From the NCBI GenBank assembly GCA_964627095.1, contig CAZVKH010000001.1:8451-72450 (forward strand): a DNA stretch of 64,000 nt, given 5' to 3'. A program made the position numbers and the translations under genes. The notes under the pieces are model-generated. The model did no database searches and was not told the origin of the DNA. It worked only from the letters and a program-made list of their open reading frames with translations. Of this stretch, positions 53,182 to 57,287 are shown one piece after another. The number at the start of each line of letters is the position of its first letter. Position 1 is the first letter of the stretch. Origin of the DNA: an uncultured Candidatus Saccharibacteria bacterium. GTDB taxonomy: Bacteria; Patescibacteriota; Saccharimonadia; Saccharimonadales; JAUPVS01.

Positions 53182-53715
53182 ATGTCAACTTTTGAACAAG
53201 AACGTCGTTCCCAGATGATCGATATTGCTACCTACCGGCAGATTAAGGAAATCGGCAAAGGCTTGGTGACTTTGTCGGGCGTGGCGTTTTCGGAAAAGCC
53301 CGACTATGACCTTGACCTTACTATAAGCCGCATCACCGACGAAACTTTTGGCGTATTCCCACAAATGGGTTACAAAGTTCGCGTGGCAAGCAAACAAACA
53401 CCGGAGGCAAACCACGAAAACCTATTAATTACCGTCAAAGGTTTTGGAGTAGTCGATAGCGAAGGTGAGCTACTCTACAGACGCAAAGTCGGGATAACAG
53501 TTATCGACCAAGAAGTTAAATATTCGTGGGTAGACCTTTTACTACCGCGTGATGGCAAAACACCAGAGAGAGCTCAGCCACAGAGTCAACTAGAGGCTGG
53601 CATCCGCGAACACTTTGAAGCATGGGAGCATGAAATCAGTGGACGACAATTTTACCTCGACCCGGAAAGCGCCCAAATGCTGATGGCCGAAATTCAGGAA
53701 ATCGCCGAGCTCTAA
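53182..53715 (+). CDS. Hypothetical protein (177 aa)
   Basis: No recognised domain. Its stop is followed directly by conserved element copy B. Confidence 0.45.
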   Translation: MSTFEQERRSQMIDIATYRQIKEIGKGLVTLSGVAFSEKPDYDLDLTISRITDETFGVFPQMGYKVRVASKQTPEANHENLLITVKGFGVVDSEGELLYRRKVGITVIDQEVKYSWVDLLLPRDGKTPERAQPQSQLEAGIREHFEAWEHEISGRQFYLDPESAQMLMAEIQEIAEL

Positions 53716-53731
53716 GGCTTTTGGCGGGGCA

Positions 53732-53830
53732 GGGCAACGCACATCTGCAGCCATGCTCGGAATATATTCCTGCGCGTGGCTTTGATGACCGAACCTGGGC
53801 TACGCCCGACGGTTCAAGTCTTCTCTGTGA
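53732..53830. other. tRNA-adjacent conserved structured element, copy B (candidate ncRNA/cis element)
   Basis: About 75 nt nearly identical to copy A. Helix 2 covaries (AGCCA/TGGCT versus GGCC/GGCC). Palindrome GGAATATATTCC. Confidence 0.5.
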
Positions 53831-53833
53831 CCA

Positions 53834-53868
53834 AGAAAAAAGACCCTTCTTGTGAAGAGTCTCTTTTC
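53834..53868. terminator. Bidirectional rho-independent terminator (A-run, GACCCTTC-TTGT-GAAGAGTC, T-run) 3' of tRNA-fMet
   Basis: 8-bp stem, AAGAAAAAA upstream, TCTTTTCTT downstream. Confidence 0.6.
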
Positions 53869-53943
53869 TTGGTAGCGGGGGCAGGACTCGAACCTGCGAC
53901 CTCGTGGTTATGAGCCACGCGAGCTGCCACTGCTCCACCCCGC
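53869..53943 (-). tRNA. Initiator tRNA-fMet (anticodon CAT)
   Basis: 5' CGCGGGGTGGAGCAG identical to E. coli tRNA-fMet. C1 is unpaired with T72. Anticodon loop CTCATAA. CCA encoded. Confidence 0.85.
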
Positions 53944-54024
53944 GTCGAGTTGAGCAAGCTATAGCATACCAGATGAAAGCTACTTATACAACATCGGTGG
54001 GAAATGTGGTAGAGTATCTTCACT

Positions 54025-54726
54025 ATGACCGATATGCTCGCTCCTTCAGCCGAAGCCGAAAAATTGCCAACAGATGACCCGACAACCATACTAGCACTTG
54101 AAGCACGCGACTTATTACTCGCCGCCAGCCAAGCCGAACCGGGCAGCCCGGATGAGGTAGCCGCCCTAGAGGAAGCCAATAGTCGCTTTAGCGAGCTGGT
54201 TAGCGAAACCCAGGAATTCCTTACCAAATTTGCTCTGAGCCGCCCCCACCCCAGGCATTTTGATGTGCAAGAAGTAGTCCAGGAAACCTACGCCCGAGCC
54301 TATAAGGGTTTACATAATTTTAGGGGTGACGCCAAGTTTTCTACGTGGCTATTTTACGTTTTGCGCAGCTGTACTGATAACTACTGGAGACGCGAGGCAC
54401 GTCACAACAATCAGCCCCTACCCGAAGAAGACGGTTCAGATCCATCCTTGGTTGGTAGTATTGCCGTGGTGTCATCATTAGATACTGGCGAGGTCGACAG
54501 CTTTTTGGACTACAGTAGCCTTTCGCCGGAACTAGAAGCAATGCTGGCCACTTTAAGTCCCAAGCAACAACAAGCTATTCGTATGCATGACGTAATGGGA
54601 CAAACCACTAAAGAATGTGCCGCGCAACTAGGTGTTAGTGAAATTAGTTTTAAGATGAACGTACACCGGGCTCGCCATAACCTACGCCGCGAATTCCCCG
54701 ATGCCAGAAACTGGTTAGAAGAATAA
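54025..54726 (+). CDS. ECF-type RNA polymerase sigma factor with ~55-aa N-terminal extension
   Basis: Sigma70 region 2 (…YARAYKGLHNFRGDAKFSTWLFYVLRSCTDNYWRR) and region 4 (…QQQAIRMHDVMGQTTKECAAQLGVSEISFKMNVHRARHNLRREF). Confidence 0.8.
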   Translation: MTDMLAPSAEAEKLPTDDPTTILALEARDLLLAASQAEPGSPDEVAALEEANSRFSELVSETQEFLTKFALSRPHPRHFDVQEVVQETYARAYKGLHNFRGDAKFSTWLFYVLRSCTDNYWRREARHNNQPLPEEDGSDPSLVGSIAVVSSLDTGEVDSFLDYSSLSPELEAMLATLSPKQQQAIRMHDVMGQTTKECAAQLGVSEISFKMNVHRARHNLRREFPDARNWLEE

Positions 54727-54728
54727 TC

Positions 54729-54756
54729 TTGACAAATTAGCAACTTCATGTATAAT
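54729..54756 (+). promoter_or_regulatory. Near-consensus sigma70 promoter TTGACA-16-TATAAT (with upstream TG)
   Basis: TTGACA at 54729-54734, TGTATAAT at 54749-54756. Confidence 0.7.
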
Positions 54757-54814
54757 ACTTAGTGTTGTCATGACAAAACAAACAACAAAATAAAACAACA
54801 GGAAACTACACACA

Positions 54815-54898
54815 ATGAAATCACAACTCGCCTACGAGTTCGCCCAAACCCAAGATCAGGCAGTTTCACAATTTGACGATCTAATCTCATCTTTGTAA
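54815..54898 (+). CDS. 27-codon ORF (MKSQLAYEFAQTQDQAVSQFDDLISSL) between its own promoter and terminator; micro-protein or small-RNA gene
   Basis: Shine-Dalgarno AGGAAA 8 nt upstream of the ATG. Bounded by a consensus promoter and an intrinsic terminator. Confidence 0.35.
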   Translation: MKSQLAYEFAQTQDQAVSQFDDLISSL

Positions 54899-54924
54899 AC
54901 CTACTCGATCAAACTCCCATAAAA

Positions 54925-54956
54925 GAGCCCTTTAAGCGCAAAGGGTTCTTTTTATT
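54925..54956 (+). terminator. Rho-independent terminator (GAGCCCTTT-AAGCGC-AAAGGGTTC + TTTTTATT)
   Basis: 9-bp stem including one G:U pair, followed by a T-run. Confidence 0.7.
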
Positions 54957-55034: not shown

Positions 55035-55111
55035 GGCGGCGTAGCTCAGTTGGTTAGAGCACAGGACTCATAAGCCTGGGGTCACAAGTTCAAATCTTGT
55101 CGCCGCTACCA
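55035..55111 (+). tRNA. Elongator tRNA-Met (anticodon CAT)
   Basis: Closely resembles E. coli elongator tRNA-Met (…GTTGGTTAGAGCAC…CTCATAA…GGGGTCACAAGTTCAAATC…). CCA encoded. One A:G mismatch at 31:39. Confidence 0.75.
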
Positions 55112-55167
55112 AACTTATTTGATATCGCTTGTGTTTAACCCCGTTTGGGGTAATAATAAACGGTATT

Positions 55168-55842
55168 ATGGATATGGATCTTAAACCCCCGACGCAGCCC
55201 AAATATCAGCTTAAGGAAACTCCGCCACCCGGCGCAACGCCACCTGAACCGCAGATGGACGACCCCTTTAAAGTTGATCCGCCACCACCCGAACTAACCG
55301 TACCTAAACCAAAGAAAAAACGCAGCGGCAAAGCTAAAAAGGCTTTGCTGGTTATTTTAGTATTGGCTCTGCTTGGTGCGGCCGGCTATGGTATTTACTA
55401 CTGGCAACACCAGCAAGTCGACAAACTAGCTAAAGAAAACCAGGCTCTAACCGCCCAACTAGCTGCCGCCAATAAAAAAGCTAGTGATGCCGAAGCCGAG
55501 AACGCCAAGCTTAGCGAAGCAGCCACCCCGCCAACGGCCGATACTTTGGTAATTACGGCTGCTACCGCCGATTGCCAGGCCGAGGTTGACCCAGCCACTA
55601 AGAAGGCTTTGGTATACACCCAAGGCACGCAAGGCACTGACAAAAAGAAAGTGCTGTATTCGACTGATAAGACCTTTGCCAAGGTTAGCGCTACCTGTGC
55701 TGCCACCGCTAACGCCACCGAGCCAGCCACGCTGTACTATGCTAAATTAGCCGGTACTACCTGGACGGTCATCTATGCTGACACCGCCGAGCCCGACGCC
55801 GACGTAACTGCTTTGTACGCCATCCCAACTGAATTCAAATAA
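55168..55842 (+). CDS. Single-pass membrane protein with Pro-rich N-terminus and Ala/Thr-rich extracytoplasmic domain
   Basis: The ORF-track start at 55129 is TTG. ATG at 55168/55174. TM LLVILVLALLGAAGYGIYYW. Confidence 0.5.
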   Translation: MDMDLKPPTQPKYQLKETPPPGATPPEPQMDDPFKVDPPPPELTVPKPKKKRSGKAKKALLVILVLALLGAAGYGIYYWQHQQVDKLAKENQALTAQLAAANKKASDAEAENAKLSEAATPPTADTLVITAATADCQAEVDPATKKALVYTQGTQGTDKKKVLYSTDKTFAKVSATCAATANATEPATLYYAKLAGTTWTVIYADTAEPDADVTALYAIPTEFK

Positions 55843-57211: not shown

Positions 57212-57287
57212 GGGGGTGTAGCTCATCGGTCAGAGCAGGCGGCTCATAACCGCTTGGTAGATGGTTCAACTCCATCCACCCCCACCA
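57212..57287 (+). tRNA. tRNA-Ile2 (anticodon CAT, lysidine-modified type)
   Basis: Anticodon arm GGCGG-CTCATAA-CCGCT-TGGTA closely matches E. coli tRNA-Ile2 (GGCGA-CTCATAA-TCGCT-TGGTC). tilS is present in the window. Confidence 0.7.

What the first reader, a model, noticed from the sequence alone, without database searches (positions are those of the whole stretch)
54025..54956. ECF sigma factor followed by a stand-alone consensus promoter, 27-codon ORF and terminator
- Immediately after the ECF sigma gene stop there is a textbook sigma70 promoter (TTGACA-16-TGTATAAT).
- A 55-nt A-rich leader follows, with AGGAAA 8 nt before the ATG.
- The ORF encodes MKSQLAYEFAQTQDQAVSQFDDLISSL.
- A strong intrinsic terminator closes the unit. 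The whole unit is 230 nt.
- Anti-sigma factors normally sit directly downstream of ECF sigma genes. Here there is no membrane anti-sigma. Instead there is this acidic amphipathic micro-protein. It could be a soluble mini anti-sigma or an unrelated micro-protein, or the transcript itself may be a regulatory small RNA.
- The sigma factor also has an unusual 55-aa acidic N-terminal extension.
Basis: seen in the sequence. Interest (0 to 1): 0.5.

Follow-up and report, generated by a model that had tools for sequence, protein, structure and literature searches.

The report
Conserved Saccharibacteria microprotein gene beside sigma
The 230-nt unit is a real, strongly promoted gene for a 27-residue protein; it belongs to a large, unnamed family of micro-genes in Saccharibacteria that usually sits next to methionine tRNA genes, and its position beside a sigma factor here is a lineage-specific accident rather than a sigma/anti-sigma pairing.

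Summary
It comprises an ECF-type sigma gene (54025-54726), the only perfect sigma70 promoter in 64 kb (54729-54756), an A/C-rich leader, a 27-codon ORF (54815-54898) and a strong terminator.

A promoter-pattern scan of metagenomes found the same architecture in 79 promoter instances, encoding 59 distinct peptides of 26-35 aa.
- The peptides share a gapless 22-residue core with an invariant Glu and Asp.
- Codon-position bias and dN/dS of 0.07-0.40 in the window's subgroup show that the ORF is under protein-level selection.
- No Pfam, NCBIfam, PADLOC, PHROG, PDB or Rfam family matches.

Among the unbiased hits a sigma gene is adjacent only on the contig already known as L006. The closest peptide relatives have the unit directly beside a divergent tRNA-Met(CAT) gene with initiator-like features. 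tRNA-Met is the only tRNA type found near units.

About 30% of units carry a second, basic micro-ORF (MLIQDI..P..), which the window has lost.

The anti-sigma and pure-sRNA readings are therefore not supported; the 'unrelated microprotein' reading is. The peptide's function is unknown.

Two side findings remain unexplained. A perfect, Watson-Crick-only palindrome lies just after the promoter. The sigma gene is hypervariable: 32% aa identity between strains whose neighbouring genes are 83-90% identical in DNA.

The parts
54025..54726 (+). ECF-type sigma factor gene. It is a neighbour, not functionally tied to the unit. It has an extra N-terminal helix and is probably expressed from its own promoter as a near-leaderless mRNA (TAGAGT 8-9 nt before the ATG).
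   Evidence: Pfam r2, r4_2 and ECF. AF2 model and Foldseek hits to SigH, SigE, CnrH and SigW. The allele in L018 is only 32% identical.
54729..54756 (+). Consensus sigma70 promoter with an extended -10: TTGACA, a 16-nt spacer ending in TG, then TATAAT. The spacer motif AAAnnAGCAA is shared with relatives.
   Evidence: 12/12 match, unique in the window, 0.04 expected. The same pattern was found in at least 120 metagenome stretches.
54765..54776 (+). Perfect 12-nt palindrome TTGTCATGACAA at about +2 to +14 of the transcript. In relatives its sequence varies but it stays a perfect palindrome.
   Evidence: 97.7% Watson-Crick, no G-U pairs, and the innermost adjacent pair is always complementary.
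54777..54814 (+). A/C-rich, G/U-poor leader with a Shine-Dalgarno-like AGGAAA at 54800-54805.
   Evidence: the composition and an SD-like purine run recur in 79 units.
54815..54898 (+). 27-codon microprotein gene (ORF1 family): MKSQLAYEFAQTQDQAVSQFDDLISSL.
   Evidence: Family alignment with invariant E8 and D21, codon-position bias and dN/dS 0.07-0.40. It is the single copy in the window.
54920..54956 (+). Intrinsic terminator: a 13-pair hairpin plus a T-run.
   Evidence: 58 of 63 family units end in the same way.
53870..53944 (-). tRNA-Met(CAT) with initiator-like features (C1 opposite U72), divergent from the locus. In the closest sigma-less relatives it lies 67-81 nt from the unit's promoter.
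   Evidence: The initiator assignment rests on reading the acceptor stem.
55035..55111 (+). tRNA-Met(CAT) downstream, with its own promoter-like site (TGGTCA, 17 nt, TATATT with TG).
   Evidence: It recurs downstream of many units.

Best explanation
The unit is a stand-alone, very strongly transcribed gene for a 27-residue soluble microprotein. It is one member of a large, unannotated family (ORF1 family, 26-35 aa). The taxon is Saccharimonadales (Candidatus Saccharibacteria, Patescibacteria); this assignment rests on the names that sources give to close homologues of the neighbouring CcdA/DsbD gene, and was not checked for the metagenome contigs.

Shown:
- The transcript has the layout of a high-output gene: a perfect extended -10 promoter, a palindrome right after the start site, an unstructured A/C-rich leader, a Shine-Dalgarno sequence, the ORF and a strong terminator.
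- The peptide, not just the RNA, is under purifying selection.
- The family's usual home is beside tRNA-Met(CAT) genes.
- In about 30% of units the ORF is followed by a second, very basic micro-ORF (MLIQDI..P.., 26-44 aa). This second ORF is often only 1-14 nt downstream, which suggests translational coupling. The window's lineage lacks it.
- The ECF sigma gene lies between the divergent tRNA-Met promoter and the unit's promoter only in some lineages.

Inferred:
- The peptide is not the sigma factor's anti-sigma.
- It is made in large amounts and acts in trans as a short amphipathic helical protein. Its invariant Glu and Asp and its hydrophobic stripe dock on a conserved partner. That partner was ancestrally the co-translated basic peptide, and possibly a housekeeping machine such as the translation apparatus, given the tRNA-Met synteny.
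- The biochemical function itself is not established.
For: Anatomy.

Taxon.

Family size and architecture:
- 79 of 130 promoter instances carry the palindrome, A/C-rich leader, SD and micro-ORF; they encode 59 distinct peptides.
- 58 of 63 units end in a terminator.

Coding selection:
- A gapless 22-residue core with E8 and D21 invariant.
- Pairwise differences at codon positions 1/2/3 are 0.53/0.37/0.67.
- dN/dS is 0.07-0.40 among the window, L026, L051 and L091. For two further pairs (L026-L091 and L051-L091) no ratio could be computed because synonymous differences were saturated (pS 0.88 and 0.75). The median is 0.47 over 276 pairs.
- In L026 the ORF keeps 27 codons, its start and its stop at 77% nucleotide identity.

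Independence from sigma.

The peptide is identical beside sigma alleles that are 32% identical. The ORF is 84/84 identical while neighbouring genes are 83-90% identical.

tRNA-Met is the only tRNA type within about 1.5-2 kb of the units, and is present near at least 27 of 64.

Second micro-ORF: 19 of 64 units.

Helical, amphipathic character:
- AF2 single-sequence model: one helix, pLDDT 93.6.
- Hydrophobic moment of the C-terminal 16 residues: 0.39 against 0.24 for shuffles.

No known family matches. Some members are present as unnamed proteins in the public collection.
Against: - There is no direct evidence of transcription or translation: no RNA-seq, Ribo-seq or proteomics.
- Between the window, L006 and L018 the ORF has no synonymous change at all, although neighbouring genes differ by 10-17%. 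This hints at an added nucleotide-level constraint or recent recombination.
- The structure model comes from a single sequence of a 30-mer and carries little weight. Most family members have Pro-Thr in the middle, which argues for two elements rather than one helix.
- Net charge ranges from -8 to +4 across the family, so no simple electrostatic mechanism is conserved.
- The partner-binding and housekeeping role rests on synteny and expression signals only.
- All six alleles of this particular sigma subfamily that were found do lie next to a unit. Some functional linkage in those lineages is therefore not excluded.
Confidence: 0.72

Rival explanations
1. The peptide is a soluble mini anti-sigma factor. 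It binds and holds the adjacent ECF sigma factor inactive.
For: It lies immediately downstream of an ECF sigma gene that has no classical anti-sigma partner. All six alleles of this sigma subfamily found here have a unit next to them, either downstream (window, L006, L018, L026, L033) or upstream (L027, L030).
Against: - 67 of 68 units found independently of sigma have no sigma-like ORF within -3 to +3.5 kb.
- The nearest peptide relatives, L051 and L091, have tRNA-Met directly upstream.
- The peptide is 100% identical next to sigma alleles that share 32% identity.
- There is no anti-sigma domain, no Cys or His, and no Pfam or NCBIfam hit.
- The unit has its own housekeeping-type promoter and is not co-transcribed with sigma.
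Confidence: 0.04
2. The roughly 190-nt transcript is a regulatory small RNA. Either the ORF is incidental, or the RNA is dual-function as well as coding.
For: - The size, the strong promoter and the terminator are typical of an sRNA.
- The ORF and 5' UTR are as conserved as the tRNAs between the window and L018 (84/84 and 51/52), while neighbouring genes are 83-90% identical.
- The palindrome and the CAAACA repeats in the leader are conserved.
Against: - Frame, length and residues are conserved with many synonymous changes at greater distance.
- There is no Rfam hit.
- The body of the RNA is not significantly structured (z = -1.72).
- The leader is conserved in composition rather than sequence.
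- The palindrome shows DNA-type symmetry: no G-U pairs, and the central adjacent pair is complementary.
- Non-coding only: about 0.03. An extra RNA role on top of coding: about 0.12.
Confidence: 0.12
3. The ORF is a cis-acting leader peptide whose translation controls read-through of the terminator into the downstream tRNA-Met gene, or ancestrally into the second micro-ORF.
For: A short ORF followed directly by a terminator, with a co-oriented tRNA-Met downstream in the window and in several relatives.
Against: - The tRNA has its own promoter-like site.
- In several units the next gene is convergent (L069, L106, L123), and in others it is unrelated.
- No alternative antiterminator pairing is evident.
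- The peptide sequence is conserved along its whole core and has no runs of regulatory codons.
Confidence: 0.04
4. The peptide, with the basic second peptide where present, is exported without a signal sequence. It acts outside the cell as a membrane-active or signalling peptide on the host bacterium of this epibiont. This would resemble phenol-soluble modulins and delta-toxin, or leaderless two-peptide bacteriocins.
For: - It is 26-35 aa, amphipathic and lacks a signal peptide.
- It has very strong expression signals.
- Ancestrally it forms an adjacent pair of co-expressed micro-ORFs.
- The episymbiotic lifestyle of Saccharibacteria is background knowledge.
Against: - No transporter, immunity or processing gene is consistently nearby.
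- Net charge is not conserved, ranging from -8 to +4.
- The invariant Glu and Asp and the order-wide conserved chromosomal position look more like a housekeeping protein than a weapon.
- There is no PADLOC or PHROG hit.
Confidence: 0.1

Closest known systems
Stand-alone bacterial microprotein genes (sORF-encoded proteins of 50 aa or fewer, such as Sda, MciZ and SpoVM)
   Same: Own promoter, Shine-Dalgarno sequence, ORF of 26-35 codons and own terminator. The peptide is under purifying selection. It is missed by annotation: no gene is called at this position in the NCBI record behind L018.
   Different: There is no sequence relationship to any described family. It is not hydrophobic or membrane-spanning, unlike many known small proteins. 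It is conserved across many lineages in a fixed neighbourhood with tRNA-Met genes.
Dual-function sRNAs that encode a peptide (RNAIII/delta-toxin 26 aa, SgrS/SgrT, SR1/SR1P)
   Same: A transcript of about 190 nt with a strong promoter and intrinsic terminator that carries a peptide ORF of about 27 codons. The peptide is predicted to be an amphipathic helix, like delta-toxin. Nucleotide conservation between close strains is unusually high.
   Different: No base-pairing seed or conserved RNA structure was found apart from the terminator and a DNA-type palindrome. There is no Rfam match.
ECF sigma / anti-sigma gene pairs
   Same: A small gene sits directly downstream of an ECF-type sigma gene.
   Different: It is a separate transcription unit with a housekeeping promoter. 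It has no anti-sigma domain. The small gene occurs without sigma in nearly all loci and does not change when the sigma allele does.
Leader-peptide attenuators (TnaC, ThrL and similar)
   Same: A short ORF followed within about 20-30 nt by an intrinsic terminator.
   Different: There is no regulated gene downstream in the same unit in most loci, no alternative pairing, and the peptide core is conserved as a folded unit.

Membership tests
Anti-sigma factor cognate to the adjacent ECF sigma | Genetic coupling: the gene co-occurs with its sigma gene across genomes, usually in one operon. | tested here: not met
   Only 1 of 68 independently found units has a sigma-like ORF nearby. L051 and L091 lack it. 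The unit has its own promoter.
Anti-sigma factor cognate to the adjacent ECF sigma | A recognisable anti-sigma domain (class I ASD, zinc-binding HxxxCxxC, or another described fold). | tested here: not met
   No Pfam or NCBIfam hit at E up to 10. There is no Cys or His in the peptide.
Anti-sigma factor cognate to the adjacent ECF sigma | Physical binding to sigma regions 2 and 4. | not testable with these tools
   Complex prediction and binding assays were not available.
Sequence-conserved sORF-encoded microprotein | Reading frame, start and stop are conserved, with purifying selection on the amino acids. | tested here: met
   60 distinct ORFs, a gapless 22-aa core, E8 and D21 invariant, dN/dS 0.07-0.40.
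Sequence-conserved sORF-encoded microprotein | A ribosome-binding site at the proper distance. | tested here: met
   An SD-like purine motif lies 4-16 nt upstream of the start in 79 units. This was a selection criterion, so the test is partly circular. In the window, AGGAAA lies 9 nt upstream.
Sequence-conserved sORF-encoded microprotein | Detected translation product. | not testable with these tools
   There are no expression data.
Trans-acting small RNA (Rfam family or new) | Sequence or structure conserved independently of the reading frame. | tested here: not met
   The frame is conserved. There is no Rfam hit. The RNA body has z = -1.72. The leader is conserved in composition only.
Leader-peptide transcription attenuator | A regulated gene downstream in the same unit, with alternative terminator/antiterminator pairing. 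| tested here: not met
   Downstream genes are convergent or unrelated in several loci. No alternative pairing appears in the fold.
ECF (group 4) sigma-70 family, for the neighbouring gene | Only regions 2 and 4, with an ECF-like fold. | tested here: met
   Pfam r2, r4_2 and Sigma70_ECF. The best Foldseek hits are SigH, SigE, CnrH and SigW. An extra N-terminal helix of about 35 aa is atypical.
Phenol-soluble-modulin / leaderless bacteriocin type peptides | A strongly amphipathic helix plus a dedicated exporter or immunity genes. | tested here: inconclusive
   The hydrophobic moment is moderate, 0.39 against 0.24 for shuffles. There is no recurrent transporter or immunity neighbour.

The most novel reading that the evidence does not exclude
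The ORF1 microprotein, ancestrally co-translated with the basic MLIQDI peptide, is a so far unrecognised abundant core component of Saccharibacteria cells. It could be a small subunit or regulator of the translation apparatus linked to methionine or initiator tRNA, or an exported effector used on the host bacterium. Its expression would be switched through the lineage-specific perfect palindrome at the transcription start, which could be a methylation or operator site that differs between lineages.
Probability: 0.15. Interest if true: 0.75.

Novelty: new member of a known kind. Interest (0 to 1): 0.5.

Why it matters
Saccharibacteria have genomes of about 1 Mb and depend on a host bacterium, so almost every retained and strongly expressed gene is informative. 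This 84-nt gene appears to carry the best promoter in a 64-kb stretch. It is conserved in many lineages, it is below the length cut-off of common gene callers, and it has no name or family. It is a concrete, testable candidate for an overlooked core protein of this phylum.

The work also removes a tempting mis-annotation as a mini anti-sigma. It exposes two further puzzles at the same locus: a sigma factor that differs radically between related strains, and a promoter-proximal palindrome that changes sequence but never loses perfect symmetry.

Tried and rejected
- Rfam at gathering and at permissive thresholds: nothing but tRNAs.
- Synteny through the CcdA/DsbD neighbour worked only for the closest relative (L018). 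Relatives at 75-79% identity have a different downstream context.
- Pfam, NCBIfam, PADLOC and PHROGs gave nothing for either micro-ORF.
- PDB profile searches:
  - ORF1 gave only insignificant hits, with ribosomal protein bS6 best at E = 0.42. I judged this a chance match of two short segments that are not adjacent in the bS6 fold.
  - ORF2 gave nothing.
- phmmer of a 30-aa window translation against 1.84 billion representatives returned only a TPR-repeat protein at E = 4e-4. I take this as similarity of helix pattern, not homology.
- I considered resemblances recalled from memory: the RpoZ N-terminus, the Spo0E 'SQELD' motif, double-glycine leaders, and RiPP precursors (PqqA, MftA, graspetides). 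I did not pursue them. The defining residues or partner enzymes are absent, and these comparisons are not tool results.
- I considered that window 54899-54925 is a remnant of the second micro-ORF. I dropped this as unconvincing: there is no hit with the ORF2 profile.
- The viral contig scan found two promoter matches, neither of them a unit.
- Literature searches found no description of this family.

Full report
**What is in the window**

The region reads as described.
- An ECF-type sigma gene runs from 54025 to 54726. Pfam finds Sigma70_r2 at residues 58-126, Sigma70_r4_2 and Sigma70_ECF.
- Two bases after its stop comes TTGACA (54729), a 16-nt spacer ending in TG, and TATAAT (to 54756). This is a 12/12 match. 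It is the only one in the 64-kb window; 0.04 are expected by chance.
- Next come a perfect 12-nt palindrome (TTGTCATGACAA, 54765-54776) and an A/C-rich leader with AGGAAA at 54800-54805.
- The ATG at 54815 opens a 27-codon ORF that ends at 54898.
- A 13-pair hairpin with a T-run follows (54920-54956).
- Without the terminator the RNA is not unusually structured (z = -1.72).
- Rfam finds only tRNAs.
- The locus is bracketed by tRNA-Met(CAT) genes at 53870-53944 (-) and 55035-55111 (+). A third lies at 57212-57287.

**Whose genome**

Close homologues of the neighbouring CcdA/DsbD gene are named by their sources as Candidatus Saccharimonadales, Saccharibacteria or Patescibacteria.

**Close relatives**

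The sigma protein itself is almost an orphan: one homologue at 92% identity, and the next at about 30%.

The syntenic locus L018 is an NCBI MAG whose CcdA is 96% identical. It has the same order: tRNA-Met(-), sigma, unit, tRNA-Met(+).
- Its sigma is only 32% identical in protein.
- Neighbouring genes are 83-90% identical in DNA.
- The micro-ORF is 84/84 identical, the 5' UTR 51/52, and the tRNAs 100%.

A more distant locus, L026, keeps the whole unit at 77% nucleotide identity. It has the same 27 codons, start and stop, six conservative replacements and several synonymous changes: MKNQLAYEFVQTSDQSVSQYDELISSL.

**A large family**

The promoter, including its spacer (TTGACAAAnnAGCAAnnnnnTGTATAAT), is shared by three levels of relatives. 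I therefore used it for the single metagenome scan.
- Of 130 promoter instances in all held sequence, 79 are followed by the same layout: a palindrome at a fixed distance, an A/C-rich leader, an SD and a micro-ORF. They give 59 distinct peptides of 26-35 aa.
- The peptides align without gaps over a 22-residue core, roughly [LMF]x[YF]E[LF]xx[TS]x[ND]xx[IV]xx[IFV]Dxx[LI]. Glu8 and Asp21 (window numbering) are invariant.
- Differences at codon positions 1/2/3 are 0.53/0.37/0.67.
- dN/dS is 0.07-0.40 within the window's subgroup, for the four pairs where it could be computed. The median is 0.47 over 276 pairs.
- 58 of 63 units end in a hairpin plus T-run.

This is a protein-coding gene family under purifying selection, in its own transcription unit.

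**Not tied to sigma**

Among the units found without using sigma as bait, only one has a sigma-like ORF within -3 to +3.5 kb, and it is the contig already known as L006.

In the nearest peptide relatives the promoter of the unit starts 67-81 nt from a divergent tRNA-Met. These are L051 (MKNQLAYEFVQTNDNSVSQFDELISSL) and L091. That tRNA-Met has initiator-like features, and no gene lies in between. In the window's lineage the sigma gene, with its own short promoter, occupies that spacer.

tRNA-Met(CAT) is the only tRNA type detected near any unit, and is present near at least 27 of 64.

The six alleles of this sigma subfamily that I could find do each lie beside a unit, downstream or upstream. 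These loci were found through sigma, however, and may all descend from one insertion at this site.

Taken together, the peptide is invariant beside sigma alleles that are 32% identical, it has no anti-sigma domain, and it has its own housekeeping-type promoter. I therefore reject the anti-sigma reading (about 0.04).

**A lost partner**

In 19 of 64 distinct units, and in L033, ORF1 is followed by a second micro-ORF of 26-44 aa. It begins MLIQDI..P and is very basic. It often starts 1-14 nt after the ORF1 stop, which suggests translational coupling. The window has no such ORF.

**What the peptide might be**

No Pfam, NCBIfam, PADLOC or PHROG family matches either peptide.

PDB profile searches give nothing significant. 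A scan of 1.84 billion representatives gives only a TPR repeat at E = 4e-4.

A few members exist as unnamed proteins in the public collection. No gene is called at this position in L018.

A single-sequence AlphaFold model is one helix with pLDDT 93.6, which is weak evidence.

The C-terminal half is moderately amphipathic: hydrophobic moment 0.39 against 0.24 for shuffles. Net charge varies from -8 to +4. Most members have Pro-Thr-[TS]-[ND]-[EQ] in the middle, which looks like a helix cap.

My inference, not shown by any tool result, is an abundant cytoplasmic microprotein that docks on a conserved partner through its hydrophobic stripe and the invariant Glu and Asp. That partner was ancestrally the basic second peptide, and perhaps the translation apparatus, given the tRNA-Met synteny. 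An exported, host-directed peptide (about 0.1) and an additional RNA-level role (about 0.12) remain open.

**The sigma factor**

The AlphaFold model has mean pLDDT 79. It shows an extra N-terminal helix (residues 19-36, pLDDT about 97) packed on the first helix of region 2. The best structural matches are ECF sigmas. Compared with typical ECFs the extension is about 35 residues and acidic. Its extreme divergence between related strains is striking and unexplained. The boundaries of the divergent stretch lie at the start codon and about ten codons before the stop.

**The palindrome**

About 50 of 64 units have a perfect even palindrome of at least 8 nt, at a fixed distance (most often 8 nt) after the -10 element. 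There are many different sequences, including TTGTCATGACAA, TTGATGCATCAA, TTGTGATCACAA, TTGTAGCTACAA, TTACTCGAGTAA and TTGAAGCTTCAA.

On 36 aligned sequences, which I chose from those that show the palindrome, the six pairs are 97.7% Watson-Crick. There is not one G-U pair, and the innermost pair of adjacent bases is always complementary. An RNA hairpin does not require that. A protein operator would not be expected to vary in this way. I leave it unexplained. Methylation sites that differ by lineage, template-switch 'perfection' of a hairpin, and RNA dimerisation are possibilities.

**Verdict**

The gene is a new member, in effect a new family, of a known kind: sORF-encoded microproteins. I found no description of it in the literature.

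Noticed in passing
window 54025-54726; L018 8442-9107; L026 4001-4690; L027 746-1438; L030 751-1455; L033 141-860: The sigma gene is hypervariable. Window and L018 alleles share 32% aa identity, while neighbouring genes are 83-90% identical in DNA and the flanking tRNA and micro-gene are about 100% identical. Divergence starts at the start codon and ends about ten codons before the stop. L027 and L030 likewise share identical upstream DNA but carry different alleles (230 and 234 aa). All alleles keep an extra N-terminal helix (conserved T.LAWEA..LL...PGS).
   Followed up: partly
window 54765-54776 and the same position in about 50 of 64 related units: A perfect even palindrome lies right after the transcription start. 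Its sequence differs between lineages but it stays perfectly Watson-Crick symmetric: no G-U pairs, and the central adjacent bases are always complementary. The central tetranucleotides (CATG, TGCA, GATC, AGCT, TCGA, CGCG) resemble methyltransferase or restriction sites.
   Followed up: partly
L027 566-663; L033 1052-1153; 19 of 64 metagenome units (for example L065, L084, L098): A second conserved micro-ORF family follows ORF1 in many loci. It is very basic, 26-44 aa, and begins MLIQDI..P. It has two subtypes, one ending ..HRIKVH and one ending ..GR.I.IV.A. It often starts 1-14 nt after the ORF1 stop. It is absent from the window and has no known family.
   Followed up: partly
metagenome loci L047, L048, L052, L092, L109, L121, L133 (promoter hits): The same promoter pattern, with the conserved spacer AAAnnAGCAA, also drives what appear to be leaderless genes. 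Their ATG lies about 7 nt after TATAAT, and the products begin MTTIEKP.. or MSTIEKIRPQAPKEFN.R.QDHG. The pattern also drives tRNA genes (L103, L147). It may be a general strong-promoter consensus of the clade.
   Followed up: no
window 53716-53869 versus L018 3409-8135: Relatives with 96% identical CcdA carry an extra block of about 4.7 kb between the 177-aa gene and the tRNA-Met. The block holds six genes, including an inositol monophosphatase-like gene, a peptidase S51 and a methyltransferase, and the window lacks it. The 177-aa gene itself is poorly conserved (about 69% DNA identity over part of it). The whole neighbourhood is plastic.
   Followed up: partly
L006 about 1-380 versus window 53538-53908: In contig WBZX01059626.1, similarity to the window begins inside the anticodon loop of the tRNA-Met gene. 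Upstream of that point the sequence is unrelated and G+C-rich. L027 and L028 also show a truncated tRNA-like fragment downstream of sigma. This could be an integration junction at the tRNA or a chimeric assembly.
   Followed up: no
window 53870-53944 (-), 55035-55111 (+), 57212-57287 (+): There are three tRNA genes with anticodon CAT within 3.5 kb. The first has a C1/U72 mismatch typical of initiator tRNA. Which of the other two is elongator Met and which is tRNA-Ile2 (lysidine) was not determined.
   Followed up: no
upstream neighbours of units in L037, L043, L060, L066, L069, L077, L089, L093, L111, L145, L151: A divergently transcribed gene for a small RRM-type RNA-binding protein (..KLFVGGLPF..KGFGFVEF..) is the most frequent protein-coding neighbour of the unit. 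It is present in at least 11 of 52 upstream neighbours.
   Followed up: no
window 55129-55842: The listed ORF starts at a TTG, but relatives and the sequence suggest the real start is the ATG at 55169 (MDMDLKPP...). The product has a proline-rich N-terminus, one transmembrane helix and an extracytoplasmic domain. This is an anti-sigma-like topology, but no anti-sigma domain was detected.
   Followed up: no
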